A stretch of 32,000 nucleotides of DNA from Candidatus Nitrosopumilus koreensis AR1 (GCF_000299365.1 NC_018655.1:1230001-1262000); one strand, 5' to 3'; counted from the first letter of the stretch, positions 3,584 through 31,011 are shown. Made by a program: numbers and translations. The notes: generated from the sequence alone by a model not told the origin.

Positions 3584-6093
3584 TTGAAACTATCATGTCC
3601 CAAATGCAAGTCCAAAATAGAGATTCAAAAGACTTTCAATAAAAAAATGCATGTATCTTGTGGAAATTGTGGAATAGAAGACCTGCTAGAATTTTCAAAA
3701 AACATAGACGAGGTGTTTTTAGAGTTTCTTTCAAGATACGACAAGGGCTTAGTAGTTGAAAATGGATTGTCTGAAGGTCTCAAAAATGAAGGAATTGTAC
3801 GTGATGAAAGCGAAATTAGAGATATGATTGGCAAAAACAAACCAGACAAAATAACTGAAGAAATTTTATTTTCAAAAAAAGATTATGTCTCGCAATACAA
3901 AGTTTTGAGCAATCCTGAGCCCAAGATGGGCTCTAAAGTAGAAGATTTAGGGTTAGATGAGGCAATTACCAAACACCTCAAGGAATTAGGAATTAATCAA
4001 TTTTACAAATTTCAAGAAGAGGCAATCATGGAAATTGCATATGGGGAAAATATTGTCATTGAAGCACCTACTGCTTCAGGAAAAACAGAGGCATTTTTAA
4101 TTCCAGTTATTCAAAAAATTAAAAAAATACAAGTGATGGCAAGGTCTTTGCAATTTTTGTTTATCCAACAAAGGCACTTGCAAGAGATCAGTTTCCAAAG
4201 ATCAAAAAATTTGCAGAAAAAATTGGAATTAACGTAAAGGTGTTTGACGGAGATACAAAGATTACAGAAAGAAGAGACATCATAGACAATCCTCCACACA
4301 TTCTTGTAACAAACTTTGATGTTTTACATTATCACATGTGGCATCAAACGAAATTTTCATCAATACTCAGTTCCACAAGAATTTTGGTAACAGATGAAGC
4401 ACATGTGTATTCAGGTATTTTTGGCTCTAATGTACACTACATCATAAAAAGGCTCAAAAGAATTTGCACAAACAAACTGCAGTTTGTAGCCGCATCAGCC
4501 ACACTAGATGATGCCAAAGGATTCTGTGAGAAACTGTTTGGAGAAAAAATGCAAAAAATTCAAGGCTCTGGAAAAAAAGGCCAAACAGACTTTGCAATGT
4601 TGTTTCCATCACTTCGGACACAAAGATCACTGATGGTTGAATTGACAAAAAAGCTTACTCAAAAAAATCACAAAACTATGGTCTTTAATAACTCACATCT
4701 AAATTCTGAATTACTAGCTATTCAAGCCAAAAAACAAAAAGTCAACATCAAGGTTCACAGGGCCGGATTAATGGCAAATTATCGAACATTTGTTGAAAAA
4801 CAGTTCAAAGAAGACATGCTTGATGCAATTTCATGCACACCTACTCTTGAATTGGGCATAGATGTAGGAAATGTTGATTGTGTGATATCATCAACCATAC
4901 CAGTAAATCGACTTATTCAGAGAATAGGTAGGGCTGCAAGAAAGGGACAGAAAGGATATGCGTTTTTGACATTAGGAAATGATCCAATTTCACAATACTA
5001 CAAAAATCACCCTGATGACTATTTTGAGGATGTAGAGAAAACATACATCGATCCCAAAAATCCCTTTGTAGAAGAATTTCAAGTGTTGGCAATGGCTTGT
5101 GACAGACCAATATCAAAACATGAGCTCAAAGAACACCAAGAAGTAATAGAGCACCACATCATCAAAGGAACACTAAAAGAATTCAACAATAGAATAATTC
5201 CAAATTTTGACAAAATTAATTCTATTCTCAACGAATACAGCATAAGAGGAATAGGAAAATCAGTAGACATTTTCTTAAATAACAAAAAAGTAGGAGATAG
5301 AATTCTGCCAATCGCACTAGAAGAACTGCATAAAGATGCAATCTATTTTCTAGCAGGAATTAGATACAAAGTAAAAGAGTTTGACTATCCAGAAAAAAAT
5401 TATGCAAAGATTGAGAAAATTCCCAGAGATTATCCATACTATACAAAGGCATTAACTGAAGAGTGGCCCACAATTGAAACAGTTTTTGAGAAAAGAGAAG
5501 CAGGTGGAGTTGAAGTTGCATTTTGTAAATTACATATTGAGAAAAAAGTATATGGATATGTCAATATCGAACTTGGACAAGAAGTAGCTCAAGGAGAAAA
5601 AGTTCTACTAGAAAATCCACTAGAATATAATTTCGTTACAAAGGGAATTGTATTTCATGCACCAAGACCTCTCAAAGTAATAGAAGAGTCTGAAGATGAA
5701 GAATACACAGAGGCAAGCGGATATCATGCAACTGAACATGTGGTAATTGAAGGAAGCAATATGATCACAGGAGGGGCATCTCAAGACTTGGGCGGCATAT
5801 CACTAGGCACATCAGGCTTGATTTTCATTTATGATGGAGCAATTGGCGGAAGTGGTGCAAGCAAAGCACTCTATGACAGATTTGAGAAAGCACTTGAAAG
5901 AAGTATGTTTATTGTAAAGGAATGTCCATGCAAAAACGAAGCAGGCTGTCCTCGATGTACGTTCTCATACAGATGTGGAAACAACAATGAGTACTTGCAC
6001 AAATATTCTTCTTTAGAAATTTTGGAGAGAATTAACAATGGTGAAAAAACACAACTAATTGATCCTACAGAAGGAGACAGGCCTCTTGTTTGA
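3584..6093 (+). pseudogene. DEXH helicase with N-terminal Zn-ribbon and C-terminal DUF1998/MZB Zn domain (MrfA/YprA-like), split by a 1-nt frameshift in an A7 run
   Basis: ORFs 3584-4237 and 4240-6093. Motif I APTASGKTEAF is in frame 1. Motif Ia VYPTKALARDQ is read only in the second frame from 4123 on. DEAH (VTDEAH) and the C-terminal CPCKNEAGCPRC...C cluster follow. The frames join if A7 at 4121-4127 is read as A8. TTG start is needed to keep the CPKC...CGNC ribbon. Confidence 0.85.
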
Positions 6094-19688: not shown

Positions 19689-20633
19689 TTGCGGAATGAT
19701 TTTTTGGTTTTAGAAGTTATCAAGAGCGACTCTTTCTGCAATCGTTGTGGAAAAAATAGTGTGATTTCAGATAATGAGACAGGGGAAAGATTTTGTGATA
19801 AATGTGGTTTTGTAATTAGAGAAACATTACAATCATCAGGCCCAGAATGGAGGTCGTTTGCAAAAGAAGGAGGTACTGATCCAACCAGAACAGGAGCACC
19901 AACGTCGCTTACGATGCATGACAGAGGACTGTCCACAGTTATTAGTCAAAGTAACAGAGATGCTACTGGTAAGCCACTTTCAACATCTATGAAAAGTACC
20001 ATTGAAAGACTGCGAACTTGGGATAGCAGAAGTAAAGTAACTTCATCTGCAGATAAAAATCTCAGACAGGCACTTGGTCAGTTATCTGTACTTAAAGACA
20101 AACTTTCACTTTCTGATTCTGTAAATGAAAAAGCATCATACATTTACAGAAAAGCATTAGAAAATGGACTAGTAAAAGGCCGCTCCATATCAGCATTAAT
20201 TGCAGCATCAATATATGCAGCATGCAGAGATACTGAAACTCCTAGAACTCTAAAAGATGTTGCCGATGCAGGTAACATTAAGAAAAAAGATATTTCCAGA
20301 TGTTATAGAATATTGCATTATGAATTGGAACTCAAGATGCCTGTTGTAAATCCAATTCAATGTATTGCAAGAATTTCAAGTAAATTACGAATAACAGAAA
20401 AATCAAAGCGCTATGCAATCAAAGTACTTCAAGTTGCTCAAGAACATGAAGAAAGTGCTGGAAAAGATCCTATGGGTATTGCTGCAGCTGCATTATACCT
20501 AGCATGTGTCAAAAACAATGAATATGTAACTCAACGTGATGTTGCAGAAGCATCAAATGTTACCGAAGTCACAATAAGAAATCGATACAAAGGTCTAAGA
20601 TTAGACCAAGATACAGAATTACAGGTAAAATAG
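19689..20633 (+). CDS. tfb: Transcription initiation factor B (TFB), paralog 1
   Basis: Zn-ribbon CNRCG...CDKCG, B-reader/linker, and two cyclin-fold repeats. No ATG lies upstream of the ribbon, so the start is TTG at 19689 or 19704. Confidence 0.92.
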   Translation: MRNDFLVLEVIKSDSFCNRCGKNSVISDNETGERFCDKCGFVIRETLQSSGPEWRSFAKEGGTDPTRTGAPTSLTMHDRGLSTVISQSNRDATGKPLSTSMKSTIERLRTWDSRSKVTSSADKNLRQALGQLSVLKDKLSLSDSVNEKASYIYRKALENGLVKGRSISALIAASIYAACRDTETPRTLKDVADAGNIKKKDISRCYRILHYELELKMPVVNPIQCIARISSKLRITEKSKRYAIKVLQVAQEHEESAGKDPMGIAAAALYLACVKNNEYVTQRDVAEASNVTEVTIRNRYKGLRLDQDTELQVK

Positions 20634-22850: not shown

Positions 22851-23540
22851 TGTAGATAAAAAATGCATGTACAAGTATATTATACTTTGAAAATGAGAAA
22901 AATTTCCCTAAATACTAGTGTGACATACAATAGTATGAACTGTAACAAGAAAAGTGAAGCACATCTTTGGAGATATTCGAAACACAATAAAATTCGTAGA
23001 TGCTTAAAGTGTAAATCTAGACTGCCAATTACTGAGAAAGAATACTATCTCAAATGGGGCATGCATGAAAACATTGCAAAGTAGATAAATTATATTTTAT
23101 TTATTTTCCTATTTCTCTTGCACAAGTTGATGAACAAGTAGAATCATGACTCAAACTTTCATATTCTCTGCCACAATGAACACATTTTCTAAAAGACATG
23201 TAATAATTACATGTTCATGTTATAAAAGAAAACATTTTTTCAGTTAATTCTATTGTTAGGAACAATCAGACAAAACCATCTATTTGAATTCAAAAGACAA
23301 AGAAGTTATTAAAAAACAAAACAAAATTCAAGATAATTCAAGTTTAACAAACAAATCCAAGTTTAATTACTTTCTTGAATATTCAACCACTTAAAGGAGG
23401 GTTAGATGTAGTTTAATCGGTTTAGTGGAGTTGAAGATGAGACAGTTTTGTTCACTCACTGCCACTATTCCAAAATTAATTTTAAAATTCAAATTTCATG
23501 TATTGCCAACGTTAATAGTGTAGAGTGCTTACTAATTGCA

Positions 23541-23855
23541 TTGGGAAAACGTCAAGTAAAAAATGAAAGTGCACTAAAGGAAATAAAATTGCCTGCAAAT
23601 GAGGAAGAGCAGTTTGGAAGAGTTATCAAAATGATGGGAGGAGAAAATCTCATGGTAAAATGTCAAGACAAGGTTGTCCGAAGAGGACGTATTAGAGGTA
23701 AACTAAAGAGAAGAGTGTGGATCAGAGCCAATGACGTAGTGATTATAGCACCTTGGGAATTTGGAAAAGAGGATCGAGGAGATATTTTGTGGAGATATAC
23801 ACTGCCACAAGTAGAATGGTTAAAACAAGAAAAATACATTCCGCTAGACTTTTAG
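23541..23855 (+). CDS. Translation initiation factor aIF-1A
   Basis: S1/OB-fold pattern FGRVIKMMGGENLMVKCQDKVVRRGRIRGKLKRRVWIRANDVVIIAPW...DILWRY. The long ORF from 23448 has a non-protein-like leader, so TTG at 23541 is the most plausible start (104 aa). Confidence 0.85.
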   Translation: MGKRQVKNESALKEIKLPANEEEQFGRVIKMMGGENLMVKCQDKVVRRGRIRGKLKRRVWIRANDVVIIAPWEFGKEDRGDILWRYTLPQVEWLKQEKYIPLDF

Positions 23856-25497: not shown

Positions 25498-25632
25498 TCA
25501 CTTTGAACATTTGTCGCATGATGATTCACCAATCATGCTATTTACAGGTTTGAATGTATTGTGGCATATTGCACAGATGTTTAGTAAGGTTATTCCATTA
25601 ACGACAGTAGGATCTTTTTGTTTTTCTGTCAA
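25498..25632 (-). CDS. Zn-ribbon miniprotein (44 aa, TTG start) directly downstream of TFB-2
   Basis: (M)TEKQKDPTVVNGITLLNICAICHNTFKPVNSMIGESSCDKCSK, with CxxC-x16-CxxC. Begins 14 nt after the TFB-2 stop. Confidence 0.35.
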   Translation of the reverse strand: MTEKQKDPTVVNGITLLNICAICHNTFKPVNSMIGESSCDKCSK

Positions 25633-25646
25633 TTAATCAGTCTCTG

Positions 25647-26576
25647 CTAATTGATTGTTGAAAACAAACCCAACTTTGTTTTAAATTCACGAATTCTATT
25701 TCTTATTGAAACTGTACTGGTGTTTGCAGCTTCGGCAACTTGGGTTTGGGATTTTAGTTCTCCAGTAATCACACATGCTGCATAAATTACAGATGCTGCC
25801 AAAATTTCCGGATTTTTACCAACCGTGATTCCTGCATCTTGGGCTACAGTTAAAATTTGTGTTGCTTTGCGAATTGTTTTTTCAGATAATTCAAGTTTAC
25901 TGGTAATCTTAGAAATTAACTTTATTGGATTTACTACATTTACTGTAAATCCCAATTCTTTAAACAATATGCGATAAGCCCGAGAGATCTCTTTTCTTTT
26001 AATCACAAATTGAATGGCAATTTCTGTTAGAGATCTATCATGTTCAAGATCCTTGCATGCCGCATACAGGCATGCTGCTGCAACCGATTTTACGGTTCTG
26101 CCTCGAATAAGATTTCTCTTTATTGCCTTTCTATAAAACAGAGATGCTCGTTCAATTATAGTGTCAGATAGGCCTAATTTTGATTGTACTTTGTCAAATT
26201 CCACAAGTGCAACCCTAAGATTTTTGTCTGCCGAGTTTTTTGTTTGTGACCTACTATCCCATTTTCGTAGTCTTCCAAATATCTGAACAGTTTTTACAGG
26301 TAGAGGTTTTCCAACTGAATCTCGATTCTGTGCACCTATGATTGTGTTTAGTCCTTTGTCATGCATTTTAAGTGTCAACCCAGGACCAGTTCTTGTGTTA
26401 TCAGATGTACTTGAAATAAATCTACGATCCGTCCCTCTGTATTCAGCATTTTCTGAAATTACAAATCCACAACTTGAACAAACAGTTTCTCCAAGAATCT
26501 CATCAGTTACAAATCCAGAAGCATTACAGTAATTACAAAAAATTTTTGCTTTTTCAACTGTTGTAGTTAATGTCAA
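25647..26576 (-). CDS. tfb: Transcription initiation factor B (TFB), paralog 2 (divergent)
   Basis: Zn-ribbon CNYC...CSSCG and two cyclin-fold repeats. Clearly more divergent from TFB-1 and TFB-3 than those two are from each other. Confidence 0.92.
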   Translation of the reverse strand: MTLTTTVEKAKIFCNYCNASGFVTDEILGETVCSSCGFVISENAEYRGTDRRFISSTSDNTRTGPGLTLKMHDKGLNTIIGAQNRDSVGKPLPVKTVQIFGRLRKWDSRSQTKNSADKNLRVALVEFDKVQSKLGLSDTIIERASLFYRKAIKRNLIRGRTVKSVAAACLYAACKDLEHDRSLTEIAIQFVIKRKEISRAYRILFKELGFTVNVVNPIKLISKITSKLELSEKTIRKATQILTVAQDAGITVGKNPEILAASVIYAACVITGELKSQTQVAEAANTSTVSIRNRIREFKTKLGLFSTIN

Positions 26577-26585
26577 AAATTTTCG

Positions 26586-26750
26586 CTAAACCGTTATAGT
26601 TATTTTTTTAGCAATACAATCAGAATGAATTTCCTTATCTGTATTAATATTGCAATTGTGGCAAATAAACTCTATGGGGTTTTTACATTCAGAACAGCTT
26701 TGATATACTTCCATTCTGTTTCCACATTTTCTACAAGAGGTTATTTTCAT
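26586..26750 (-). CDS. Zn-ribbon miniprotein (54 aa) directly upstream of TFB-2
   Basis: MKITSCRKCGNRMEVYQSCSECKNPIEFICHNCNINTDKEIHSDCIAKKITITV. Its stop is 9 nt before the TFB-2 start. Confidence 0.55.
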   Translation of the reverse strand: MKITSCRKCGNRMEVYQSCSECKNPIEFICHNCNINTDKEIHSDCIAKKITITV

Positions 26751-26829
26751 GACTTACAATGTGTTATTGTTTGTATTAAAGGTGTGTAAAATTAGTAGAC
26801 ACTAATGTACATTGACACCACTAAACATT

Positions 26830-27012
26830 TTAAAGTTCATGAGATATGTACTCTACATCATCCTCATCAGATAATGCATCATGAAATTTTTGAAATATTG
26901 AATCATCCATTTTAGATAGAAATAACATAAATTCTAATTCCAATACTTTCAAACGATTCATTTCTGCTAATTCTTTTTCCATTATTTTTGATACGATTAA
27001 TTGTTGATTCAT
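26830..27012 (-). CDS. Small helical protein, EMNRLKxLELEF family
   Basis: 60-aa ORF. EKELAEMNRLKVLELEFMLFLSKMDDSIFQKFHDAL aligns with the N-terminal half of 30674-30928. Confidence 0.6.
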   Translation of the reverse strand: MNQQLIVSKIMEKELAEMNRLKVLELEFMLFLSKMDDSIFQKFHDALSDEDDVEYISHEL

Positions 27013-27231
27013 TATAATTTGATAATTGGTAACCCATGTAAAAGATGGGAAAGATGTAATTCTATTCGTCTTTTTTAGAAGAGTCGTCTTTCTTTGGCTC
27101 TTCTTTTTTCTCGTCGTTACCGACTACTATTGTTGGGTTCTGTTCTTTATTTTCCATATCTATATAGATATTAAACTACATATATACTTAGTCAAAGAAG
27201 TTTATAGATAGTCAATTATATGTATAGAAAA

Positions 27232-27404: not shown

Positions 27405-27632
27405 ATGAAATATCAATGCAAAACATGTAACTTTCATTGGGAAGGCACTTCACAAACTTTTGACGAGGTACGTGATCATGAAAAAACTCATTTAAAAAAT
27501 AAAACTACTGTTCGTTGTAAAGTTTGTAATGCATCAAAGAGTATGATTGATGTAGAGCATAATTCAGATGAAAAATGGGAGTGTCAAAATTGTGGGAACA
27601 TACTTGATATGCAAGGTCTAATTAGTTCATAG
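27405..27632 (+). CDS. C2H2-like finger (MKYxCxxC...HEKTH family) fused to a C-terminal CxxC...CxxC Zn-ribbon
   Basis: 75-aa ORF MKYQCKTCNFHWEGTSQTFDEVRDHEKTHLKNKTTVRCKVCNAS...WECQNCGNILD. Confidence 0.75.
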   Translation: MKYQCKTCNFHWEGTSQTFDEVRDHEKTHLKNKTTVRCKVCNASKSMIDVEHNSDEKWECQNCGNILDMQGLISS

Positions 27633-29742: not shown

Positions 29743-30663
29743 TTAAGATTCTAACTTGAAATTTGGCTGTTTTTTTAATCCTTTGTACCTATTTCTTATG
29801 GTCACTTCTGTTACTCCTGCCGCCTCGGCAAGATCCCGTTGAGTAATAGAGCCACCATGTTTCAAACAAGCAATGTATAATGCAGTTGCAGCAAGCCCCA
29901 TAGGGTCTTTTCCAGCAGATTCTTTGTTATTCTGAGCTTCTTGAAGTACTTTGATTGCATGTCGTTTGATTTTTTCAGATAGTTCCAATTTGCTTGAGAT
30001 TCTCGATATGCATTGAATTGAATTTACAACAGGCATCTTGAGTTCCAATTCATGATGCAATAATCTGTAACATCGAGCAATATCTTTACGTTTAACATTT
30101 GCAGCATCTGCAACATCTTTTAGAGTTCTAGGAGTTTCAGTATCTCTGCATGCTGCATATATTGATGCAGCAATCATTGCAGAAATAGATCTTCCACGAA
30201 CTAGTTTTTTCTCTAATGCTTTTCTATACAAATATGCAGCTTTTTCAAGAACATTTGTAGAAAGTGCAATCTTGTCTTTTATTCTAGTTAATTCACCGAG
30301 TGCTTGTCTGAGATTTCTATCTTGAGGTTCATGAGCTTGGCTTCTGCTATCCCAAGTCCGTAATCGTTCAATGGTGCTTTTCATAGATGTTGATAGTGGC
30401 TTGCCAGTAGCATCCTTGTTTATTGGATTAATTACAGTAGATAGCCCCATATCATGTATCAAAAGTGATGAGGGTGCTCCAGTTCTTGCGGGATTTGCCC
30501 CACTATCTGTCTGAAATGCCCTCCATTCTGGACCTGACTCATTTGATTTTTCAGAAACAACATATCCACATTTACCACAAAACTGTTCTCCAGTAACATT
30601 ATCAGTCTGCATGGAATTTTTTCCACAGCGTAGACAGTTAGAATCTGTAATTGAGACCACCAT
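29743..30663 (-). CDS. tfb: Transcription initiation factor B (TFB), paralog 3 (close to paralog 1)
   Basis: Zn-ribbon CLRCG...CGKCG and two cyclin-fold repeats. Long identical blocks with TFB-1 (GKPLSTSMKSTIERLRTWDSRS, IAASIYAACRDTETPRTLKDVADA). Confidence 0.92.
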   Translation of the reverse strand: MVVSITDSNCLRCGKNSMQTDNVTGEQFCGKCGYVVSEKSNESGPEWRAFQTDSGANPARTGAPSSLLIHDMGLSTVINPINKDATGKPLSTSMKSTIERLRTWDSRSQAHEPQDRNLRQALGELTRIKDKIALSTNVLEKAAYLYRKALEKKLVRGRSISAMIAASIYAACRDTETPRTLKDVADAANVKRKDIARCYRLLHHELELKMPVVNSIQCISRISSKLELSEKIKRHAIKVLQEAQNNKESAGKDPMGLAATALYIACLKHGGSITQRDLAEAAGVTEVTIRNRYKGLKKQPNFKLES

Positions 30664-30673
30664 GAAAGGTGCT

Positions 30674-30928
30674 TTATGCTGCCACCTTTTTTATTGGGAT
30701 TTTAAGTGATGAAACATTTCTAATTTTTTCATCTTGTGATTCTAATTTTGAGTCAGATTGTGTATTGTCAATATCTGCATTCTCAAAGATTATATTTTCA
30801 TTCGTTAATGCCGCACGAAATTTTTGAGACATTGTTTCATCCATTCGGGTTTTAAAAAACAAGAATTCTAATTCTAATCTTTTCAGCCTATTCATTTCAG
30901 ATAATTCTTCTTCAATTCTTTTTGTCAT
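30674..30928 (-). CDS. Small protein: EMNRLKxLELEF-family helical N-half plus an Alba-C-terminus-like tail
   Basis: 84-aa ORF ending 10 nt before the TFB-3 start. The N-half aligns with 26830-27012. The tail LESQDEKIRNVSSLKIPIKKV matches the Alba tail LESQDGRKRDVSTIEIPISKKV. Confidence 0.65.
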   Translation of the reverse strand: MTKRIEEELSEMNRLKRLELEFLFFKTRMDETMSQKFRAALTNENIIFENADIDNTQSDSKLESQDEKIRNVSSLKIPIKKVAA

Positions 30929-31011
30929 GATCTATGTTCCATTCATCACACTTAAAGATGATTGTATTTGGAACGGATTTGCATTTTGTGAAGAAAAAAA
31001 TGAGCGGAAAA

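What the first reader, a model, noticed from the sequence alone, without database searches (positions are those of the whole stretch)
25498..27012. Second TFB cassette: same helical-miniprotein family upstream, Zn-ribbons on both flanks of TFB-2
The minus-strand order is EMNRLKxLELEF-family protein (27012-26830), a 54-aa Zn-ribbon (26750-26586, stop 9 nt before TFB-2), TFB-2, then a 44-aa CxxC...CxxC ORF starting 14 nt after the TFB-2 stop. The helical family therefore occurs twice in the window, each time upstream of a TFB paralog on the same strand. That is unlikely by chance.
Basis: partly seen in the sequence, partly recalled or inferred. Interest (0 to 1): 0.62.

Follow-up and report, generated by a model that had tools for sequence, protein, structure and literature searches.

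The report
Miniprotein genes around an accessory TFB
A spare copy of the archaeal basal transcription factor gene TFB in a marine ammonia-oxidiser is always paired with a tiny zinc-binding protein gene, whereas the small helical-protein gene in front of it is a genus-specific orphan that lies near TFB genes far more often than chance but is not a fixed part of the unit.

Summary
The two helical ORFs are homologous, are the only copies in this 1.64-Mb genome, and each lies upstream of a TFB gene on the same strand.

The helical family is a real protein-coding orphan: dN/dS is 0.14 and AlphaFold2 predicts one long helix. It was found only in this genus, in 23 of 150 other species, and it has its own conserved promoter-like box. 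A TFB gene lies within 3 kb at 20 of 34 loci, against roughly 4% expected. However, orientation varies, seven fully flanked loci have no TFB, and the gene stays intact where TFB-2 has decayed.

The conserved core of the "second cassette" is different. It is the 54-aa zinc-ribbon gene followed after 9 nt by TFB-2, which has a conserved TTG start. In front of it sits a conserved TTAG-N6-CTAA palindrome plus a TATA-like box, whatever gene lies upstream. The same-strand position of the helical gene here is a rearrangement shared with one relative. The 44-aa downstream ORF is a shortened form of an 85-125-aa gene.

Earlier follow-ups in this scan on neighbouring findings had already described the Alba chimera and the miniprotein modules. 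Function remains inferred.

The parts
27062..27157 (-). 31-aa K/E-rich miniprotein gene ('orf31'), lying upstream of the helical gene on the same strand
   Evidence: It is conserved at 61-87% identity at the edge of the TFB-2 module in at least 12 species and one other genus. In the usual arrangement it is divergent from C2H2->Znr54->TFB-2.
27035..27047 (-). Promoter-like box CATCTTTTACATG, 22 nt before the helical ATG
   Evidence: It is nearly identical in the close relative G086. It resembles the box ATCATCCTTAAGTG found at the same distance upstream of about 30 of 34 family members. Calling it a promoter is an inference.
26830..27012 (-). Helical miniprotein gene, TFB-2-side copy (Hel_B, 60 aa)
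   Evidence: It is homologous to 30674-30928 and its ATG is conserved in G086. For the family, dN/dS is 0.14, dS is saturated, and third-codon-position entropy is 5 times that of the second position. This copy is less constrained: dN/dS is 0.45 against G086, compared with 0.11 for TFB-2.
26791..26806 (-). Palindrome ATTAG-N6-CTAAT, a putative operator
   Evidence: The TTAG and CTAA half-sites are invariant in 16 of 16 orthologous loci while the 6-nt spacer varies freely. The same motif, often in tandem, precedes Znr54 paralogs in this genome and in other genera.
26772..26782 (-). TATA-like box CCTTTAATACA, about 22-32 nt before the Znr54 ATG
   Evidence: CTTTAATACAAA is conserved in 16 of 16 loci regardless of the upstream gene. 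Its role as a BRE/TATA element is inferred from general knowledge of archaeal promoters.
26586..26750 (-). Znr54, a 54-aa miniprotein with four conserved metal-ligand pairs (C6/C9, C19/C22, C30/C33, H42/C45)
   Evidence: All eight ligands are invariant in 16 sequences. It lies directly upstream of every intact TFB-2 ortholog for which upstream sequence was available (15 loci), and of TFB-2-like genes in two other genera. AF2 gives beta-hairpins plus a C-terminal helix at pLDDT 68.
25647..26576 (-). TFB-2 (TFB_B), a divergent accessory TFB paralog with a TTG start 9 nt after the Znr54 stop
   Evidence: Family matches are in Pfam and NCBIfam. Orthologs were found in only 15 of 150 other species of the genus. 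The TTG is conserved while the codons after it vary, and there is no in-frame ATG before the Zn-ribbon cysteines.
25498..25632 (-). Znr44, a C-x2-C...C-x2-C knuckle ORF and N-terminally shortened form of a conserved downstream gene
   Evidence: Orthologs in other species are 85-125 aa and have an acidic N-terminal part (EFKIQLSxEDIxKIDEEI). Only the window and G086 have the 44-aa form. Its dN/dS against G086 is 0.18.
27405..27632 (+). 75-aa C2H2 finger plus ribbon miniprotein gene, here divergent from the cassette
   Evidence: In 10-11 other species its ortholog lies on the TFB-2 strand directly upstream of Znr54. This indicates an inversion in the window and G086.
30674..30928 (-). Helical miniprotein gene, TFB-3-side copy (long form, 84 aa), a chimera with the old Alba 3' end
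   Evidence: Its tail LESQDEKIRNVSSLKIPIKK matches the Alba C-terminus (E 3e-6; 0 of 5000 shuffles reach the score). At the empty site in G149, Alba ends ...IPIKKVAA directly before the TFB-3 ortholog.
29743..30663 (-). TFB-3 (TFB_C), a paralog conserved across the genus
   Evidence: Orthologs at 80-89% identity occur in most of the 150 genomes searched. It is normally preceded by alba.

Best explanation
SHOWN. The stretch is this genome's copy of an accessory alternative-TFB module. The conserved core of the module is a two-gene unit: the Znr54 zinc miniprotein gene, then 9 nt, then TFB-2 with a TTG start. In front of it are an invariant TTAG-N6-CTAA palindrome and a TATA-like box. Behind it is a Zn-knuckle gene, which is shortened here. 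The helical gene is a separate unit with its own promoter-like box. It encodes a genus-specific orphan protein predicted to be one roughly 40-residue amphipathic helix. It is recurrently but not obligatorily located next to TFB genes of three paralog groups. In this genome and one close relative, a local inversion placed it, together with a 31-aa K/E-rich gene, directly upstream of Znr54/TFB-2. INFERRED. Znr54 and TFB-2 are co-transcribed from their own regulated promoter. TFB-2 translation is coupled to Znr54 translation, which would fix their stoichiometry. A dimeric factor, possibly a Znr54-family protein itself, binds the palindrome. The helical protein works by helix-helix binding, either as a homo-oligomer or on a conserved partner of the basal-transcription/chromatin neighbourhood. 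It would be a general, dispensable modulator, not a dedicated partner of TFB-2.
For: Znr54 abuts TFB-2 at every intact ortholog that has upstream sequence, and does so in two other genera. The palindrome half-sites and the TATA-like box are invariant while the spacer and the upstream gene vary. The same palindrome precedes Znr54 paralogs. The TTG start is conserved. The helical family is coding and strongly constrained. AF2 predicts a single helix over residues 2-41, with pLDDT above 90 for residues 1-30. The family's own upstream box is conserved in about 30 of 34 loci. A TFB lies within 3 kb at 20 of 34 loci, in six arrangement classes. The gene order comparison supports an inversion. The helical gene is intact beside decayed TFB-2 genes in G164 and G181. 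AOA are reported to switch their dominant TFB paralog between growth modes (PMC12448741).
Against: The promoter, operator and translational-coupling roles are read from conservation only. No inverted repeats that could mediate the inversion were found. Much of the TFB linkage is shared ancestry: 11 of the 20 loci stem from one event. Seven loci with full flanks have no TFB. A single predicted helix says little about function.
Confidence: 0.5

Rival explanations
1. Dedicated TFB cassette. The helical protein is a specific cofactor or antagonist of the TFB encoded downstream and is co-transcribed with it, like an anti-sigma or sigma-partner gene.
For: At 13 of 34 loci the helical gene is directly upstream of a TFB on the same strand. 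Eleven of these have a gap of 17 nt or less before TFB-3. Both copies in this genome are so placed. Three TFB paralog groups are involved.
Against: The helical gene and Znr54/TFB-2 each keep their own promoter-like element. Orientation relative to TFB-2 is divergent or distant in most species, and the same-strand state is a derived inversion in 2 of 16. The helical gene persists where TFB-2 is a remnant and in 17 genomes without TFB-2. Nine genomes have TFB-2 without it. Hel_B is the least constrained gene of the cassette.
Confidence: 0.15
2. Hitch-hiking. The helical gene has no functional link to transcription. It is a small self-contained orphan gene that accumulates, with other miniprotein genes, in recombination-prone variable regions where TFB paralogs also sit.
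For: Distribution is patchy: 23 of 150 species in one genus and 0 of 60 genomes in the 24 other genera sampled. It sits in many different contexts, and 7 loci have no TFB. The commonest neighbours are C2H2 miniprotein genes (20 of 34 loci), which themselves cluster by TFBs. Rearrangements are evident: the Alba chimera, the inversion, and decayed copies in G116 and G181.
Against: The core is very strongly conserved despite saturated dS. There were several independent juxtapositions with three TFB groups. No viral, defence or mobile-element signature was found.
Confidence: 0.28
3. Not a protein. The conserved stretch is a cis-regulatory leader or uORF, or an RNA element, of the downstream gene.
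For: The ORF is short, it is adjacent to a regulated gene, and the upstream non-coding sequence is very conserved.
Against: There is clear three-base periodicity of variation and dN/dS of 0.14. The ORF occurs at loci with unrelated downstream genes. The two window copies share 53% identity and 84% similarity at the amino-acid level.
Confidence: 0.03

Closest known systems
Alternative TFB/TBP paralogs used as global switches (Halobacterium TFB/TBP network; TFB switching in AOA biofilms, PMC12448741; Sulfolobus TFB2, bioRxiv 10.64898/2026.09.06.749720)
   Same: TFB-2 is a full-length divergent TFB paralog, present as one of 11 in the genome. It has an intact Zn ribbon and two cyclin repeats.
   Different: TFB-2 is accessory: it was found in 15 of 150 other species. 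It is always preceded by a translationally abutting zinc miniprotein gene with a palindromic upstream element. I found no description of such a pairing in the papers searched.
Archaeal zinc-finger micro-proteins with C(P)XCG motifs (Haloferax volcanii HVO_2753 with four motifs, PDB 6YDH, and HVO_0758; PMC11241148)
   Same: Znr54 is under 70 aa with four Cys/His pairs, and its first motif is CRKCG. It belongs to a multi-copy family of miniproteins found in 16 of 25 genera sampled.
   Different: There is no detectable sequence relationship. Only one of the four motifs fits C(P)XCG. The fixed coupling to a TFB gene and the shared palindrome are not reported for the Haloferax proteins. [quoted passage not shown]
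Bacterial sigma/anti-sigma operons (an analogy only)
   Same: A small protein gene sits beside the gene for an alternative promoter-recognition factor.
   Different: There is no homology. The helical gene has its own promoter-like box and a variable orientation, and it survives without the TFB. Co-transcription and binding are untested.
Alba (Sac10b) chromatin protein, as the source of the long-form tail
   Same: The last 20 or so residues of the 84-aa helical protein are the former Alba C-terminus.
   Different: The helical core has no relationship to Alba. The copy in this finding (26830-27012) lacks the tail.

Membership tests
TFB / TFIIB (for 25647-26576) | Two cyclin-like TFIIB repeats | tested here: met
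   PF00382 gives 104 bits with two stretches. NCBIfam NF001658 aligns over 8-308 of 312 positions at 278 bits, which is below its subfamily cut-off of 384.
TFB / TFIIB (for 25647-26576) | N-terminal CxxC...CxxC zinc ribbon | tested here: met
   The four cysteines are present (FCNYC...CSSCG). Pfam Zn_Ribbon_TF scores 25.8 bits, just under its cut-off of 29.
Zinc-ribbon miniprotein (for 26586-26750) | Conserved metal-ligand pairs on beta-hairpin knuckles | tested here: met
   Eight Cys/His ligands are invariant in 16 sequences. AF2 predicts hairpins at pLDDT 68.
Zinc-ribbon miniprotein (for 26586-26750) | Match to a curated zinc-ribbon family above threshold | tested here: not met
   The best Pfam and NCBIfam hits have E of 0.009-0.1 and fall below their cut-offs. 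Foldseek against the PDB finds nothing with E below 0.4.
Zinc-ribbon miniprotein (for 26586-26750) | Zinc binding | not testable with these tools
   This needs metal analysis of purified protein.
C(P)XCG micro-proteins (Haloferax type) | [quoted passage not shown] | tested here: not met
   Only CRKCG fits. The other pairs are CSECK, CHNCN and HSDC.
Anti-sigma-like dedicated partner of the adjacent initiation factor (for the helical gene) | Conserved co-orientation and co-occurrence with the factor gene | tested here: not met
   For TFB-2, the same-strand upstream arrangement occurs in 2 of 16 species. Seventeen genomes have the helical gene without TFB-2 and nine have TFB-2 without it.
Anti-sigma-like dedicated partner of the adjacent initiation factor (for the helical gene) | Physical binding to the factor | not testable with these tools
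   Only single chains can be modelled here.
Viral or defence-island gene (for the helical, Znr54 and Znr44 genes) | Relatives in viral contigs, PHROGs or PADLOC | tested here: not met
   There were no hits.

The most novel reading that the evidence does not exclude
The module is a self-contained alternative-initiation switch built from microproteins. Znr54 would be an autoregulatory DNA-binding zinc protein that recognises the TTAG-N6-CTAA operator and is made in fixed ratio with TFB-2 through translational coupling. The genus-born helical protein would be a TFB-binding modulator, an archaeal counterpart of an anti-sigma or co-factor. That would be the first such factor described for archaeal TFB paralogs.
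Probability: 0.15. Interest if true: 0.75.

Novelty: new variant of a known kind. Interest (0 to 1): 0.5.

Why it matters
Ammonia-oxidising archaea carry many TFB paralogs and appear to switch between them (PMC12448741), but how a given paralog is controlled is unknown. A TFB paralog that is always made behind a zinc miniprotein from a promoter with a conserved palindrome gives a concrete, testable regulatory unit. The helical orphan is a clean example of a young, strongly constrained microprotein gene. Its repeated placement beside basal-factor genes can be tested for interaction. If either miniprotein touches TFB or its promoter, that would add a layer of control to archaeal transcription initiation.

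Tried and rejected
- Pfam, NCBIfam, PHROGs and PADLOC scans of the helical, Znr54, Znr44, orf31 and C2H2 proteins gave nothing above threshold.
- Profile searches of PDB sequences found nothing for the helical family and only chance-level zinc-knuckle hits for Znr54.
- Foldseek of the Znr54 model against the PDB gave no match with E below 0.4, only generic zinc ribbons such as Rpb9, Trm112 and the TFIIB N-terminus. I did not fold-search the helical model because a single helix is uninformative.
- A profile search of 1.8 billion representative proteins returned only 11 clusters at E < 1e-10, so there are no distant relatives.
- I tested a viral or mobile origin. IMG/VR had no relatives, and no shared 3' element or flanking repeats delimit a mobile unit. 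I rejected this idea for lack of evidence.
- I looked for inverted repeats that could mediate the proposed inversion and found none convincing.
- Looking up the two miniproteins by sequence in earlier findings returned nothing.

Full report
**Observation**

- the helical ORF, 27012-26830, 60 aa;
- a 54-aa Cys/His ORF, 26750-26586, whose stop lies 9 nt before TFB-2;
- TFB-2, 26576-25647, with a TTG start;
- a 44-aa CxxC...CxxC ORF, 25632-25498, starting 14 nt after the TFB-2 stop.

TFB-2 matches the TFIIB repeat twice, and TFB-1 (19689-20633) and TFB-3 (29743-30663) are also TFBs. The helical ORF is homologous to 30674-30928, which ends 10 nt before TFB-3. The match is 53% identity and 84% similarity over 45 aa, E 2e-16. 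The window lies in a complete 1.64-Mb genome. That genome has 11 TFB genes and exactly two helical-family matches, the two in the window.

**What the helical family is**

It is a real protein-coding gene.
- Across 33 distinct copies, third codon positions vary about five times more than second positions in the first 22 codons.
- Pairwise dN/dS is about 0.14, with dS largely saturated.
- Residues 8-25 (ELAEMNRLKRLELEFLFF) are almost invariant.
- AlphaFold2 predicts a single helix over residues 2-41, with pLDDT above 90 for residues 1-30. The rest is disordered.

The family has no Pfam, NCBIfam, PHROGs, PADLOC or PDB relatives. It forms only 11 clusters at E < 1e-10 among 1.8 billion representative proteins. 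It has no relatives in IMG/VR.

It was found in 23 of 150 other species of the window's genus. It was found in none of 60 genomes from the family's other 24 sampled genera. Source names on the hits say Nitrosopumilus. It is therefore a genus-restricted, patchily distributed orphan.

About 30 of 34 copies carry the same upstream box, AAAAA..ATCATCCTTAAGTG, which ends about 22 nt before the ATG. The TFB-2-side copies have a related box, CATCTTTTACATG, at the same distance, nearly identical in the close relative G086. I read this box as the gene's own promoter. That reading is an inference.

**Linkage to TFB genes**

I compiled 34 non-redundant loci with flanks. A TFB gene or TFB remnant lies within 3 kb at 20 of them. 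The expectation is about 4%, which is my estimate from about 10 TFBs and a 7-kb target in 1.6 Mb.

The arrangements fall into several classes:
- Eleven long-form genes directly precede the TFB-3 ortholog, with a gap of 17 nt or less.
- Two precede Znr54/TFB-2. These are the window and G086.
- Three are divergent from a TFB-2 locus (L009, L006, L014).
- One lies 1.4 kb upstream of TFB-2 on the same strand (L019).
- One is divergent from a TFB-1-like gene (L022).
- Two are convergent with a TFB-1-like gene (L024, L029).

Seven loci with at least 3 kb on both sides have no TFB. The linkage is therefore real and arose more than once, but neither orientation nor presence is fixed.

The commonest other neighbours are C2H2 miniprotein genes, at 20 of 34 loci. 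In this genome six of seven C2H2 copies lie within about 2 kb of a TFB gene. This agrees with earlier follow-ups of this scan on neighbouring findings.

**The TFB-2 module**

TFB-2 orthologs (63-90% identity) occur in only 15 of 150 other species. Two further species retain only remnants.

In every locus with an intact TFB-2 and available upstream sequence, the 54-aa gene (Znr54) abuts TFB-2. That is 15 loci. The same holds in two other genera, where the TFB-2-like genes are 62-65% identical. All eight Cys/His ligands of Znr54 are invariant.

The TFB-2 start is a TTG 9 nt after the Znr54 stop in 14 of 16 loci. It is a GTG in one locus, and the two ORFs overlap in one. The following codons vary, and no in-frame ATG precedes the Zn-ribbon cysteines. 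I infer translational coupling from this.

All 16 loci share the sequence TTAG-N6-CTAA, then TTTAC, then CTTTAATACAAA, about 25-60 nt before the Znr54 ATG. They share it whatever gene lies upstream. The half-sites are invariant and the spacer varies freely. In the window these elements are at 26791-26806 and 26772-26782.

The same palindrome followed by T-rich sequence occurs at only four sites in this genome. Three of them lie directly upstream of Znr54-family genes. Tandem copies (ATTAG-N6-CTAATTAG-N6-CTAAT) precede paralogs in other genera. Znr54 belongs to a multi-copy family found in 16 of 25 sampled genera. I infer that Znr54/TFB-2 is an autonomous, regulated transcription unit.

The usual gene order is orf31 (divergent), then C2H2-plus-ribbon, Znr54, TFB-2, and an 85-125-aa Zn-knuckle gene, all four on one strand. 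In the window and G086 only, the C2H2 gene points away (27405-27632, plus strand). There, orf31 (27157-27062) and the helical gene read into Znr54.

This pattern is what an inversion of the upstream block would give. I found no repeats that could mediate such an inversion. The 44-aa ORF is the C-terminal knuckle of the longer downstream gene, shortened in these two genomes but still constrained, with dN/dS 0.18.

The window's helical copy departs from the family at several near-invariant positions (R17V, L23M, F24L). Against G086 its dN/dS is 0.45, compared with 0.11 for TFB-2 and 0.26 for Znr54. In G164 and G181 the helical gene is intact next to TFB-2 remnants. Nine genomes have TFB-2 without the helical gene.

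**The TFB-3 side**

TFB-3 orthologs occur in most genomes of the genus and are normally preceded directly by alba. In 11 species a block of C2H2, Cys-rich and helical genes lies between alba and TFB-3.

The long form's tail is the former Alba C-terminus. BLASTP gives E 3e-6, and 0 of 5000 shuffles reach the observed score. At the empty site in G149, Alba ends ...IPIKKVAA, and the 45 nt before TFB-3 are nearly identical to those of filled sites. This confirms what an earlier follow-up reported.

**Mechanism**

The anatomy and conservation described above are shown. The rest is inferred:
1. Znr54 and TFB-2 are co-transcribed from their own promoter.
2. TFB-2 is translated by re-initiation after Znr54, which would tie their amounts together.
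3. A dimeric factor, possibly a Znr54-family protein, binds the palindrome just upstream of the TATA-like box. That is the position used by archaeal activators and repressors (general knowledge).
4. The helical protein acts through helix-helix contacts as a dispensable, general modulator, not a TFB-2-specific partner.

The rivals are a dedicated anti-TFB or cofactor role, pure hitch-hiking in variable miniprotein regions, and a non-protein element. They are weighed in the report's rival-explanations section.

**Limits**

Only single chains could be modelled. Related genomes are not independent, so the counts overstate the number of separate events.

Noticed in passing
window 26791-26806; own genome C1:842302(-), 919561(+), 1013694(+); L103, L106, L107: ATTAG-N6-CTAAT palindromes, often two in tandem sharing CTAATTAG, sit just upstream of a T-rich or TATA-like box in front of Znr54-family miniprotein genes, in this genome and in other genera. 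One further site precedes a small membrane-protein ORF. This looks like a family-wide operator.
   Followed up: partly
window 30949-30962 and 27035-27047; about 30 of 34 related loci: A conserved box, AAAAA..ATCATCCTTAAGTG, ends about 22 nt before the ATG of almost every helical-family gene. The gene therefore carries its own promoter-like element wherever it lies.
   Followed up: partly
window 27062-27157 (-): A 31-aa lysine/glutamate-rich ORF (MENKEQNPTIVVGNDEKKEEPKKDDSSKKDE) is conserved at the edge of the TFB-2 module in many species and one other genus. Its nucleotide sequence is almost identical between the window and G086.
   Followed up: partly
L014 (G164), L006 (G181), L088 (G137), L062 (G116): Decayed copies occur in relatives. 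They include TFB-2 reduced to a C-terminal or N-terminal fragment, a TFB-2 with an internal TAG, and a frameshifted long-form helical gene whose downstream TFB is missing.
   Followed up: partly
window 23448-23855 (+); own genome C1:469670 and C1:1008088: There are three aIF1A-like ORFs in the genome. One (1008088-1008414) lies directly beside another TFB gene (1008459-1009376), and one lies in this window 1.8 kb from TFB-2. I identified them by eye from the sequence motif, not by a family search.
   Followed up: no
It shares the TTAG half-site with the palindrome described here.
   Followed up: no
window 3584-4237 and 4240-6093 (+): Two adjacent same-strand ORFs of 217 and 617 aa look like one helicase-type gene split at a stop codon or frame change.
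   Followed up: no
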